Sequence record: MZ234023.1
DNA from: Escherichia phage vB_EcoP-101120B2
Length of the DNA: 39,899 nt
Strand: one strand, 5' to 3'
The translations under genes were made by a program, and so were the position numbers. The notes beneath the pieces are model-generated. The model ran no database searches and was not told the DNA's origin. It was given only the letters and a program-made list of their open reading frames with translations. Below, in pieces: positions 11,255 to 23,437 of the stretch; the first letter of the stretch is position 1, and each line of letters begins with the position of its first letter.

Positions 11255-11761
11255 ATGGAACGTAATGCTAACGCATACTATGAGCTGCTGGCTGCAACCG
11301 TTGAGGCATTTATCGAGCGTATTCAGTACGACCACCTGACTCAAGATGATGACTACAGCGATGCGCTGCATGAGGTCGTAGACGGTCAGGTTCCACACTA
11401 TTACCACGAGATTTTTACGGTGATGGCTGCTGATGGTATAGACCACGAGTTCGAAGACTCTGGGCTGATGCCTGAAACCAAGGACGTAACGCGTATCCTA
11501 CAAGCTCGCATCTATGAGGCGCTTTATAACGATGTGTCTAATAGCTTGGATGTAGTCTGGTTTGAGGATGAAGAGGCAGAAGAAGAGGATGAATATTGGG
11601 TAGTTGACGCTAAAACAGGCGCAATAATTGTGCAAGCTGTAGCTCTTGAGGTCGCTACTGCATGTACCAAGGTTAACTATGCGGCAGGTCGCCACCTGAA
11701 GGTGGAAGACATCAATGATAACGTAGTGTTCGACCCTGCGGCTGAGGACTGCGAGCGATGA
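11255..11761 (+). CDS. ocr: Ocr-like anti-restriction protein (gp0.3) with ~50-aa C-terminal extension
   Basis: GAGAGGA RBS. Residues ~30-105 ([44 protein letters not shown]) closely match recalled T7 Ocr, followed by an acidic stretch. The ORF continues to 168 aa, whereas T7 Ocr is 117 aa. Confidence 0.8.
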
Positions 11762-21367: not shown

Positions 21368-21580
21368 ATGATTAAACTTATTGAATTTCTGGGTCGTCTG
21401 GTTGTGCGTGGCTATTCTCGTGCTGCGAGTGTGGAACGAAAAGTCGCATCTGCTGCGGCTAAAGGTGCGGAAGCGGCTGCTGCGGAAGCGGATAGTCTGC
21501 GCATCAAGTCTCTGGACGCTGGCCTACGTGCCAAAGGTCTTGACAAGAAAGCCGAGCAACTGAAAGGCTTCTTCAGCTAA
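21368..21580 (+). CDS. Hypothetical protein, Ala/Lys-rich
   Basis: 70-aa ORF with TAAGGAG RBS. Confidence 0.5.
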   Translation: MIKLIEFLGRLVVRGYSRAASVERKVASAAAKGAEAAAAEADSLRIKSLDAGLRAKGLDKKAEQLKGFFS

Positions 21581-21600
21581 ACTATCACCTTAGGGATGAG
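21578..21600 (+). promoter_or_regulatory. Degenerate phage promoter-like sequence
   Basis: TAAACTATCACCTTAGGGATGAG has two mismatches in the CACTATAGG core. Followed by a GGGATGAGACC/GGTCTTGTCCC hairpin and a T-rich run. Confidence 0.3.
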
Positions 21601-21643
21601 ACCACGGGTCTTGTCCCTTTGTTCGCATTTGAGATTAAGAAAT

Positions 21644-21722
21644 GTCTCCATAGCTCAAACGGTAGAGCGGTGGGTCGTGATGGCCTATTGCGATTAGGGT
21701 TCGAATCCCCGTGGAGACGCCA
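21644..21722 (+). tRNA. tRNA-like element with canonical acceptor stem, D-arm and T-arm but ambiguous anticodon arm
   Basis: GTCTCCA pairs perfectly with TGGAGAC, followed by G and CCA. D-arm TAGCTCAAACGGTAGAGC. T-loop GGGTTCGAATCCC. The 26 nt between D-arm and T-arm do not fold by eye into a canonical 5-7-5 anticodon arm with U33. Confidence 0.45.
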
Positions 21723-21733
21723 CTAAGGAGTGA

Positions 21734-23437
<1,704 letters not shown>

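What the first reader, a model, noticed from the sequence alone, without database searches (positions are those of the whole stretch)
21578..21722. tRNA-like element with a non-canonical anticodon arm upstream of the primase-helicase gene
A 79-nt segment has a perfect 7-bp acceptor stem with discriminator G and encoded CCA, a canonical D-arm (GCTC/AAACGGTA/GAGC) and a T-loop (GGGTTCGAATCCC). The intervening 26 nt cannot be folded by eye into a standard anticodon arm. It may be a tRNA with an unusual or expanded anticodon loop, a degenerate tRNA, or a tRNA-mimic RNA structure. tRNA genes are not part of the T7 repertoire. It lies just downstream of a degenerate promoter and hairpin at 21578-21630.
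Basis: seen in the sequence. Interest (0 to 1): 0.65.

Follow-up and report, generated by a model that had tools for sequence, protein, structure and literature searches.

The report
Aberrant tRNA-like gene in T7-like phage
A real but abnormal tRNA-shaped gene sits in front of the primase-helicase gene of this T7-like coliphage; relatives keep its body unchanged while its anticodon arm varies, so it is probably not an ordinary decoding tRNA, and databases already list it as a pseudo-tRNA.

Summary
Window 21644-21722 (+) is called a tRNA by ARAGORN and by Rfam RF00005 (38.7 bits, threshold 29). The acceptor stem, D-arm, T-loop and encoded GCCA are canonical; the anticodon arm is not. Programs and GenBank records disagree on its identity: Ser-UGA, Thr-CGU, pseudo-GTG, "OTHER", and "Stop-UUA" in phage pO91.

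The window is a Kayfunavirus (T7-like). The element is an 88-bp accessory cassette between a phage promoter with its 5' hairpin and the gene 4 ribosome-binding site. It occurs in 34 phage records. It is absent from most kayfunaviruses and from all other T7-like gene 4 loci examined.

Among close copies the body is invariant (0/61 sites, against 19/98 third codon positions of gene 4). The anticodon arm varies at 6/17 sites. Compensatory changes preserve the acceptor and T stems. No aminoacylation identity set fits, and the putative anticodon changes between phages.

My best reading is a selected, tRNA-shaped, non-standard RNA matured by host tRNA enzymes and acting in trans. Cis processing of the gene 4 leader, unusual decoding and a decaying pseudogene remain as rivals.

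Its existence is already recorded ("pseudo-tRNA" in PMC8402661 and GenBank annotations). I found no functional study in the searched library. Interest is moderate to low.

The parts
21580..21596 (+). Phage RNA polymerase promoter, a variant of the genome's consensus. The predicted transcription start is G21593, by analogy with T7.
   Evidence: AACTATCACCTTAGGGA against the consensus AACTATCACTATAGGGA. Up to three mismatches give 12 matches, 11 on the + strand, with 1.05 expected. The homologous site is annotated 'promoter' in EcoDS1 and is conserved in all relatives.
21593..21617 (+). 5' stem-loop of the promoter transcript (11 bp, 3-nt loop).
   Evidence: It is predicted in both the MFE and centroid folds. 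Pair 7-19 changes A-U to G-C between the window and ST31-type copies, read from the alignment.
21636..21639 (+). Left TAAG direct repeat bounding the 88-bp tRNA cassette.
   Evidence: The alignment with tRNA-less EcoDS1 shows a clean gap. Deleting between the two TAAG copies recreates the EcoDS1 junction.
21644..21722 (+). tRNA-like gene, 79 nt. Acceptor 21644-50 with 21712-18; D-arm 21653-68; non-canonical anticodon arm 21671-87 (loop 21676-82, CGUGAUG); 7-nt variable region 21688-94; T-arm 21695-21711 (one A.C mismatch and one G-U pair); GCCA 21719-22.
   Evidence: ARAGORN. Rfam RF00005 at 38.7 bits. My own covariance model scores 110 bits here and 62 bits on the 78%-identical Kc166A copy. 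Pair counts are and substitution statistics.
21724..21739 (+). Right TAAG repeat, Shine-Dalgarno sequence (AAGGAG, 21725-30) and ATG (21737-39) of gene 4 (primase-helicase, 21737-23437).
   Evidence: ORF list. The block TAAGGAGTGACC is conserved in all relatives and duplicated around other cassettes in this slot.

Best explanation
This is a genuine tRNA-derived gene carried as an 88-bp accessory cassette.

Shown:
- It has a tRNA cloverleaf with a canonical acceptor stem, D-arm, T-loop and GCCA end.
- It lies 51 nt downstream of a phage promoter start and 14 nt upstream of the gene 4 start codon.
- Selection keeps the tRNA body unchanged while the anticodon arm is aberrant and changes between phages.

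Inferred:
- The phage RNA polymerase transcribes it at the DNA-metabolism stage as the first element of the gene 4 leader.
- Host RNase P and 3' trimming enzymes cut it out. U at position -1, G at +1 and R73-CCA are good RNase P determinants by established knowledge.
- The resulting stable tRNA-shaped RNA is not a standard decoder.
- I commit to a trans-acting tRNA surrogate or mimic. The conserved body lets host tRNA-binding factors accept it. The anticodon loop (ancestrally CGUGAUG) is the specificity-determining end that meets a variable host factor, most plausibly a tRNA-targeting enzyme.
For: It is a real tRNA-like fold: ARAGORN and Rfam both call it.

The structure is maintained by selection.
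- In pO91 the acceptor pair 2-74 changes U-A to C-G.
- In Kc166A the T-stem pair 55-65 changes G-C to A-U, the A.C mismatch at 53-67 becomes A-U, and acceptor pair 7-69 is lost on both strands.
- Overall 90.9% of cells are paired, against 32-57% when partners are slid. Two pairs show double changes, reached by 5 of 500 shuffles.

The body is frozen.
- 0/61 sites vary among 11 close copies, against 19/98 gene 4 third codon positions (p = 7e-5) and 11/63 upstream intergenic sites (p = 6e-4).
- The anticodon arm varies at 6/17 sites (p = 5e-5 against the body).
- Loop plus closing pair varies at 5/9 sites (p = 0.026 against third positions).

The loop matters.
- Between Kc166A and the main type the anticodon loop keeps 6/7 bases, while the variable loop keeps 1/7.
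- No tip change falls in the body.
- Several tip changes strengthen the stem: U-G becomes C-G or U-A at pair 32-40, and C28 to U creates a U-A pair.

It is not a standard decoder.
- There is no U33 or purine-37 in the best-supported register.
- The triplet differs between phages: UGA or UUA in one register; CGU, CAU or CUU in the other.
- There is no long variable arm for SerRS.
- 29 of 43 predicted ORFs end in TAA, so an active UUA form would be harmful.
- Rfam scores are 31-39 bits, against 44-73 for most ordinary phage tRNAs.

It has accessory, moron-like status in a cassette hotspot. The phage encodes Ocr, the trigger of the tRNA-cleaving PARIS system (PMC11464382, PMC12409363).
Against: - I found no expression, processing or binding data for this element in the searched library.
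- A decoy role for a phage tRNA-like RNA has no precedent that I could find. Known anti-defence phage tRNAs are functional decoders that keep the host anticodon.
- The loop lacks the UAAU motif recognised by AriB.
- The excess of loop variation over neutral sites is only marginal (p = 0.026, small numbers). Local recombination makes the neutral baseline approximate.
- The same conservation pattern is largely expected if only RNase P recognition matters.
- Kc166A lacks an encoded CCA, has a shortened acceptor stem, and drops below the Rfam threshold.
Confidence: 0.4

Rival explanations
1. It is a cis-acting processing or insulating element of the gene 4 leader. The tRNA shape recruits RNase P and 3' processing enzymes. 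These separate the promoter-proximal hairpin and upstream read-through RNA from the gene 4 message, or keep the ribosome-binding site free. The excised RNA has no role of its own.
For: - It always lies between the promoter hairpin and a TAAGGAGTGACC ribosome-binding site, whether the next gene is gene 4, an HNH endonuclease (SH5) or a 179-aa ORF (Kc166A).
- The conserved parts (acceptor, T-arm, D/T elbow, R73-CCA, U at -1) are what bacterial RNase P recognises by established knowledge.
- The variable part is the one RNase P does not need.
Against: - Most kayfunaviruses and all other T7-like phages examined have the same promoter and ribosome-binding site without the element.
- The anticodon loop is conserved 6/7 across the deepest split, while the variable loop is 1/7. 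A dispensable arm would not show this.
- Tip changes tend to repair the anticodon stem.
- Complete invariance of unpaired body nucleotides exceeds a pure shape requirement.
Confidence: 0.22
2. It is a working decoding tRNA with an unusual anticodon arm. One option is tRNA-Thr(CGU) in the main type, as some GenBank records annotate. It would supplement a codon or replace a host tRNA destroyed by an anticodon nuclease, as the T5 tRNAs do against PARIS.
For: - In the ARAGORN-Thr register the loop GUCGUGA has U33, a purine at 37, and G35 U36, the main ThrRS identity bases by established knowledge.
- Element positions 38 and 40, which vary, are positions 39 and 41 in that register. Those are the positions whose change makes T5 tRNA-Lys resistant to AriB.
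- The phage carries the PARIS trigger Ocr.
- UCA, the codon of the other register, is used at 22% of Ser codons.
Against: - The Thr-register stem has a G.G mismatch in all copies and loses further pairs in L150, SH5 and Kc166A (70% of cells paired). The Ser register keeps pairing, with pair 32-40 as U-G, U-A or C-G.
- The triplet is not conserved in any register.
- G37 would preclude the t6A37 typical of Thr tRNAs (from memory).
- The Ser reading lacks the long variable arm.
- ACG is a minor codon in the phage (15% of Thr codons).
- One tRNA would not be enough against PARIS, which needs three T5 tRNAs (PMC12409363 abstract).
- Rfam scores are low.
Confidence: 0.18
3. It is a neutral passenger, a decaying tRNA pseudogene. 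Its uniformity reflects recent spread by recombination rather than function.
For: - tRNAscan-SE-based annotation calls it 'Pseudo' and the literature calls it a 'pseudo-tRNA'.
- It has an aberrant anticodon arm, a T-stem mismatch and low covariance-model scores.
- The region is mosaic: the gp3.7 alleles are 66% or 98% identical.
- Many relatives do without it.
Against: - The 6/17 against 0/61 split inside an 79-nt gene cannot come from recency alone (p = 5e-5).
- Compensatory double changes occur in two stems, and one pair is co-deleted.
- The cloverleaf is retained in Kc166A at 78% identity, and in phages of six host genera.
Confidence: 0.12
4. It is a recoding tRNA: an ochre suppressor (UUA in pO91 and PDP21P1), or a frameshift-promoting tRNA with an expanded 9-nt loop.
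For: - ARAGORN calls pO91 'tRNA-Stop(tta)'.
- Rfam aligns a 9-nt loop.
- T7-type phages use programmed frameshifting in the capsid gene (established knowledge).
Against: - Only two copies have UUA, and most have UGA in that register.
- 29 of 43 ORFs end in TAA.
- Pair 32-40 is kept by covariation, which gives a 7-nt loop, not a 9-nt loop.
- No in-frame stop or recoding site was linked to the element.
Confidence: 0.04

Closest known systems
Ordinary phage-encoded tRNA genes (Rfam RF00005)
   Same: It has a cloverleaf with a 7-bp acceptor, a 4-bp D-stem with G18G19, a T-loop TTCGAAT and an encoded CCA. It scores above the Rfam gathering threshold.
   Different: - The anticodon arm is non-canonical and its register is ambiguous.
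- The triplet is not conserved among homologues.
- No aminoacyl-tRNA synthetase identity set fits.
- It scores 31-39 bits against 44-73 for most comparison tRNAs.
- It is a single gene in a 40-kb T7-like genome, where tRNAs are otherwise almost absent.
Anti-defence phage tRNAs, such as T5 tRNA-Lys(UUU), Thr(UGU) and Asn(GUU) that neutralise PARIS/AriB (PMC11464382, PMC12409363), and the anticodon-loop evasion hypothesis (PMC10264068)
   Same: It is a phage tRNA gene whose differences from canonical tRNAs, and between copies, concentrate in the anticodon stem-loop. The phage encodes the PARIS trigger Ocr.
   Different: Those tRNAs keep the host anticodon and remain functional decoders. Here the triplet itself varies, the loop lacks U33 and R37 in the best register, the UAAU motif is absent, and no target nuclease is known.
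tRNA-like processing signals: mascRNA at the MALAT1 3' end, mitochondrial tRNA punctuation, and E. coli tRNA-mRNA co-transcripts such as thrU-tyrU-glyT-thrT-tufB (from memory)
   Same: A tRNA-shaped module embedded in a longer transcript directly next to a coding region. The constraint falls on the parts seen by RNase P, and the anticodon end is loosely constrained.
   Different: No processing data exist for this element. It is optional within the genus. Its anticodon loop is conserved across the deepest split.
tRNA pseudogenes
   Same: It is labelled 'Pseudo' or 'OTHER' by annotation pipelines and has an aberrant anticodon arm.
   Different: Purifying selection acts on the body, and compensatory changes occur in the stems.

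Membership tests
tRNA (Rfam RF00005; canonical elongator tRNA) | Covariance-model score at or above the curated gathering threshold | tested here: met
   38.7 bits against 29 in the window, and 31.2-37.5 bits in eight other copies. The Kc166A copy is below threshold.
tRNA (Rfam RF00005; canonical elongator tRNA) | Acceptor, D and T arms with the conserved tertiary nucleotides (U8, A14, G18G19, T54-Psi55-C56, A58) | tested here: met
   All are present in the sequence. The T-stem has one A.C mismatch and one G-U pair. Acceptor and T stems are supported by compensatory changes.
tRNA (Rfam RF00005; canonical elongator tRNA) | Canonical anticodon arm: one nucleotide at position 26, a 5-bp stem, and a 7-nt loop with U33 and a purine at 37 | tested here: not met
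   - Best-supported register: two nucleotides at position 26, a C.A mismatch at 28-44 in all copies but the window's, and the loop C-G-U-G-A-U-G with G33 and U37.
- Alternative register: no position 26, a G.G mismatch and a 9-nt variable region.
- Rfam needs a 9-nt loop.
tRNA (Rfam RF00005; canonical elongator tRNA) | Anticodon conserved among orthologues, with a matching synthetase identity set | tested here: not met
   The triplet is UGA or UUA in one register and CGU, CAU or CUU in the other. There is no long variable arm for Ser. U2-A71 is present instead of the C2-G71 expected for Thr, and there is no G-1:C73 for His (sequence checked against identity rules from memory).
tRNA (Rfam RF00005; canonical elongator tRNA) | Expressed, end-matured and aminoacylated | not testable with these tools
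   No transcriptome or tRNA-seq data were found for any phage carrying it.
Anti-defence replacement tRNAs (T5 type) | Same anticodon as a host tRNA targeted by a nuclease, with escape substitutions in the anticodon stem-loop | tested here: inconclusive
   Variation does concentrate in the stem-loop. In the Thr register it falls at positions 39 and 41, as in T5 tRNA-Lys. However, the anticodon is not fixed, that register is poorly supported, and the AriB UAAU motif is absent.
Anti-defence replacement tRNAs (T5 type) | Rescues infection of hosts carrying the cognate tRNA-cleaving system | not testable with these tools
   This needs plating assays.
RNase P-processed tRNA-like elements in mRNAs | Acceptor/T minihelix with elbow, suitable -1/+1 nucleotides and an RCCA end | tested here: met
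   U at -1, G at +1, and G73-CCA are present, with the D/T loop pairing nucleotides intact. Kc166A has A at -1 and no CCA.
RNase P-processed tRNA-like elements in mRNAs | Cleavage in vivo that defines the ends of the flanking mRNA | not testable with these tools
   This needs 5'/3' end mapping in wild-type and RNase P-deficient hosts.
Suppressor or frameshift tRNAs with an expanded anticodon loop | An 8- or 9-nt anticodon loop, or a stop-complementary anticodon, conserved in the family | tested here: not met
   Pair 32-40 is maintained as U-G, U-A or C-G, which gives a 7-nt loop. UUA occurs in only two copies.

The most novel reading that the evidence does not exclude
The RNA is a decoy, not a decoder. 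It would be a highly transcribed tRNA mimic whose conserved body is accepted by a host tRNA-targeting immune nuclease or modifier. Its anticodon loop would imitate the loops of NAN-codon tRNAs.

In the 9-nt-loop reading the central triplets of the variants are GUG, AUG, GUU and UUU, with U35 invariant. From memory, these are the His, Asn and Lys classes attacked by colicin E5-like, PrrC and PARIS nucleases.

The loop would then be evolving in an arms race with different hosts' nucleases. This would be the first RNA-based, non-coding anti-defence tRNA mimic in a lytic T7-like phage.
Probability: 0.15. Interest if true: 0.75.

Novelty: already known. Interest (0 to 1): 0.36.

Why it matters
T7-like phages are the textbook example of phages that rely entirely on host tRNAs. 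A single selected tRNA-shaped gene in some of them therefore needs an explanation.

If the RNA is a non-decoding mimic or a nuclease-resistant surrogate, it would extend the recently discovered conflict over tRNAs (PARIS, retron-Eco7, PrrC) to small lytic phages used in therapy. It would also give a very compact model: 79 nt, with natural loop variants and natural deletion alleles.

If it is only a processing signal or a passenger, the practical value is limited to annotation. The same element is currently labelled tRNA-Thr, tRNA-Pseudo(GTG), tRNA-OTHER or nothing in different records, and it should not be counted as a normal tRNA.

Tried and rejected
- **Non-specific collection scans.** The pattern GGTAGAGCGGNNGGTCNTNA returned only chance matches inside coding sequence.
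- **Source tRNA.** BLAST against 5,426 E. coli genomes found no match. The 3' half weakly resembles tRNA-Glu genes, at 23-24 of 26 nt with E of 0.2 or more. The D-arm occurs in viral tRNAs of at least eleven isotypes. The ancestry stays undetermined.
- **Long alternative hairpin.** RNAfold predicts positions 30-39 pairing with 43-52 for the common variant. I rejected it because every natural variant breaks it and Kc166A cannot form it.
- **ARAGORN-Thr register.** It is less supported than the Ser register, with 70% against 82% of cells paired and one position that never pairs.
- **Thermodynamic folding.** Folding of the element and of the full leader is not informative on its own (z about -2).
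- **Degenerate remnants.** None were found in tRNA-less kayfunaviruses or other T7-like phages.
- **PARIS/AriB motif.** The UAAU recognition motif is not present.
- **Loop pairing with the 16S rRNA 3' end.** GUGAU could pair with AUCAC, but I rejected this by eye because the variants destroy it.
- **Metagenomic tRNA-like group L145/L147/L151.** It shares the CATGATG loop. Beyond the enforced pattern, its similarity is at the level of unrelated tRNAs.
- **Codon compensation.** UCA is frequent in the phage but the element cannot be a Ser tRNA. ACG is infrequent.
- **Literature.** I found only one sentence on the element (PMC8402661) and no functional work.

Full report
**What the window is.** The window is a complete or nearly complete genome of a Kayfunavirus, a T7-like phage of the Studiervirinae. 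It is circularly permuted relative to the usual map. The 1-kb stretch around the finding is 100% identical to Escherichia phage vB_EcoP-101120B1-2 (MZ234022) and several sister isolates. The ORF starting at 21737 is the T7-type primase-helicase, gene 4.

**Check of the observation.** The sequence is as described.
- There is a 7-bp acceptor stem, discriminator G plus CCA, the D-arm GCTC/AAACGGTA/GAGC and a T-loop in GGGTTCGAATCCC.
- ARAGORN calls a 79-nt tRNA at 21644-21722.
- Rfam's tRNA model matches at 38.7 bits against a threshold of 29. No other Rfam family comes near, even in a permissive scan.
- The middle part is abnormal. Rfam must open a 9-nt loop (UCGUGAUGG). ARAGORN draws two nucleotides at position 26, a stem with two G-U pairs and the loop C-G-U-G-A-U-G, which lacks U33 and has a pyrimidine at position 37.
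- The upstream "degenerate promoter" is real. The genome's phage promoter consensus, AACTATCACTATAGGGA, matches 12 times with up to three mismatches, 11 of them on the + strand, against 1.05 expected. The copy at 21580-21596 differs at two bases. It is annotated as a promoter in phage EcoDS1.
- The predicted transcript starts at G21593 with an 11-bp hairpin. The tRNA begins 51 nt downstream, and its CCA ends 14 nt before the gene 4 ATG.

**Distribution.**
- The element occurs in 34 phage records. All are Kayfunavirus, from Escherichia, Enterobacter, Salmonella, Klebsiella, Citrobacter and Kosakonia hosts. Two metagenome contigs also carry it.
- The records annotate it inconsistently: tRNA-Thr, tRNA-Pseudo(GTG), tRNA-OTHER, "tRNA", or nothing.
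- One paper notes [quoted passage not shown] (PMC8402661). I found no functional work.
- Most kayfunaviruses lack it. In EcoDS1 the alignment shows a clean gap, and the cassette is bounded by TAAG repeats. In Vec13 the slot holds a 59-aa ORF flanked by repeats of the ribosome-binding block TAAGGAGTGACC. In SH5 an HNH endonuclease gene follows the tRNA, and in Kc166A an unknown 179-aa ORF does.
- Of 79 T7-like gene 4 loci from IMG/VR, about 22 kayfunaviruses plus other genera, only the ST31 genome has a tRNA within 1.5 kb. A covariance model built from the family finds no remnants in the others.
- The element is therefore a rare accessory cassette in a hotspot.

**Structure in the light of variation.** I aligned ten distinct copies to the model.
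- Acceptor stem: pair 2-74 changes U-A to C-G in pO91. Pair 7-69 is deleted on both strands in Kc166A.
- T-stem: pair 55-65 changes G-C to A-U in Kc166A, and the A.C mismatch at 53-67 becomes A-U there.
- Overall 90.9% of cells pair, against 32-57% when partners are slid. Two pairs show double changes, reached by 5 of 500 shuffles.
- Anticodon arm, ARAGORN-Ser register (stem 28-32 with 40-44): it stays paired across variants. Pair 32-40 appears as U-G, U-A and C-G, pair 29-43 as G-U and A-U, and 82% of cells pair.
- Anticodon arm, ARAGORN-Thr register: it has a G.G mismatch in every copy and loses further pairs in three lineages, with 70% of cells paired.
- A long alternative hairpin favoured by RNAfold for the common variant is broken by every natural variant.
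- In the best register, pair 28-44 is a C.A mismatch in all copies except the window's group, where C28 to U creates a U-A pair.

**Pattern of substitution.** I compared 11 close copies, excluding pO91 (which has further body changes) and SH5 (HNH insertion downstream).

| Region | Variable sites | Fisher test |
|---|---|---|
| tRNA body outside positions 28-44 | 0/61 | reference |
| Gene 4 third codon positions | 19/98 | p = 7e-5 against body |
| Upstream intergenic region | 11/63 | p = 6e-4 against body |
| Anticodon arm (28-44) | 6/17 | p = 5e-5 against body; p = 0.2 against third positions |
| Loop plus closing pair (32-40) | 5/9 | p = 0.026 against third positions |

- The variable positions are 28, 32, 34 (G, A or U), 36 (G or U), 38 (U or A) and 40 (G or A). 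That implies at least seven events.
- Either the body is under strong purifying selection, or the arm is under positive selection, or both. Simple recency or neutral decay cannot produce this split.
- In the deepest comparison, Kc166A against the main type at 78% identity, the anticodon loop keeps 6 of 7 bases. The variable loop keeps 1 of 7 and the 3' tail 1 of 4.
- The loop is therefore not simply free to drift. It is conserved in the long run and altered in individual lineages, often in ways that tighten the stem.

**Is it a decoder?** Several tests argue against a standard role.
- The best-supported loop lacks U33 and a purine at 37.
- The triplet is not conserved: UGA or UUA in one register; CGU, CAU or CUU in the other.
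- The UGA reading would need SerRS, and the element has no long variable arm.
- The Thr reading rests on the weaker register and has U2-A71 instead of C2-G71 (identity rules from memory).
- There is no G-1:C73 for His.
- UCA is common in the phage (22% of Ser codons) and ACG is not (15% of Thr codons).
- 29 of 43 predicted ORFs end in TAA, so the UUA form in pO91 and PDP21P1 would be harmful if active.
- All copies score 31-39 bits on RF00005, against 44-73 bits for most ordinary phage tRNAs scanned in the same call. Two comparison tRNAs scored about 37. Kc166A drops below threshold.

**Origin.** The origin is unresolved.
- No E. coli genome matches.
- The 3' half weakly resembles tRNA-Glu genes.
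- The D-arm is shared by viral tRNAs of many isotypes.
- My one scan of bacterial genomes was wasted on a non-specific pattern.

**Most likely mechanism.**
- Shown: it is a tRNA-derived gene with a maintained cloverleaf, directly downstream of a phage promoter and upstream of the gene 4 ribosome-binding site. It has a frozen body and a non-canonical, lineage-variable anticodon arm.
- Inferred: the phage RNA polymerase transcribes it in the gene 4 leader. RNase P and 3' trimming enzymes excise it, since U at -1, G at +1 and GCCA are favourable. It accumulates as a tRNA-shaped RNA that is not a standard adaptor.
- I favour a trans-acting role in which the anticodon loop is the specificity end meeting a variable host factor (confidence about 0.4). 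The reasons are the loop's deep conservation, its tip changes that spare the body, its accessory "moron" status, and the current evidence that phage tRNAs counter tRNA-cleaving defences (PMC10264068, PMC11464382, PMC12409363, PMC11555353).
- The phage carries an Ocr homologue, the PARIS trigger (PF08684, E = 3.5e-30). However, the loop lacks the AriB UAAU motif, so no specific target can be named.

**Rivals.**

| Rival | Confidence |
|---|---|
| Cis-acting RNase P processing or insulation of the gene 4 leader | 0.22 |
| Unusual but functional decoder or replacement tRNA | 0.18 |
| Neutral passenger or decaying pseudogene | 0.12 |
| Suppressor or frameshift tRNA | 0.04 |

**Comparison and novelty.** It works most like a phage tRNA gene and passes the covariance-model test. 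It fails the defining tests of a canonical anticodon arm and a conserved anticodon, so I do not file it as an ordinary tRNA of any isotype.

Its existence is already recorded in GenBank annotations and in one paper, so the finding itself is not new. What this analysis adds is:
- evidence of constraint on the body;
- the concentration of change in the anticodon arm;
- the choice of register;
- the cassette boundaries.

Interest is moderate to low unless experiments show a trans-acting or anti-defence role.

Noticed in passing
window 21593-21739; L001, L004, L153, L002: The slot between the promoter hairpin and the gene 4 ribosome-binding site is a cassette hotspot. It is empty in EcoDS1. Vec13 has a 59-aa ORF with no Pfam hit, flanked by 12-bp repeats of TAAGGAGTGACC. 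SH5 has the tRNA plus an HNH_3 endonuclease. Kc166A has the tRNA plus a 179-aa ORF with no Pfam hit. The window's tRNA cassette is bounded by TAAG repeats (21636-39 and 21724-27).
   Followed up: partly
window 21593-21617: The 5' hairpin of the promoter transcript shows a compensatory A-U to G-C change (hairpin positions 7 and 19) between the window and ST31-type phages. This suggests a selected 5' stem-loop on this transcript.
   Followed up: partly
window 11255-11761 (+): An Ocr (DNA mimic) homologue of 168 aa (PF08684, E = 3.5e-30). From memory it is longer than T7 Ocr. It is relevant because Ocr triggers the tRNA-cleaving PARIS defence.
   Followed up: partly
window 21641-21652: A mini-ORF, ATG TCT CCA TAG, overlaps the tRNA 5' end. 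The left junction (TAAGAAATGTC) resembles the gene 4 start region (TAAGGAGTGACCAATGTC) with its Shine-Dalgarno sequence deleted. This may be a decayed duplication from the insertion event.
   Followed up: no
L143 2376-2452, L144, L146, L148 (marine metagenome contigs): A tRNA with an 8-nt anticodon loop (ARAGORN 'tRNA-???(cttt)') lies immediately downstream of another tRNA. It could be a four-base-decoding or frameshift-type tRNA.
   Followed up: no
L243, L247, L256, L262, L270, L275, L278 (IMG/VR contigs): A recurrent viral tRNA with an 8-nt anticodon loop (ARAGORN '???(ggaa)' or '(agaa)') that shares the D-arm TAGCTCAAACGGTAGAGC.
   Followed up: no
L151 7088-7165 (-), L145, L147: A tRNA-like element with the loop CATGATG, the same as in phage TM1. 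It has two nucleotides at position 26, three extra nucleotides between the acceptor and D arms, and no CCA, and a terminator-like hairpin follows it. It lies between a DNA methyltransferase-like ORF and a 771-aa primase-like ORF of a mobile element or phage. Homology to the Kayfunavirus element is not established.
   Followed up: partly
window 21368-21580 and homologues: The small gene upstream (gp3.7-like, 70 aa, no Pfam hit) exists as two alleles, about 66% or about 98% identical at the DNA level, among phages whose tRNA and gene 4 start are nearly identical. This shows local mosaic recombination.
   Followed up: no
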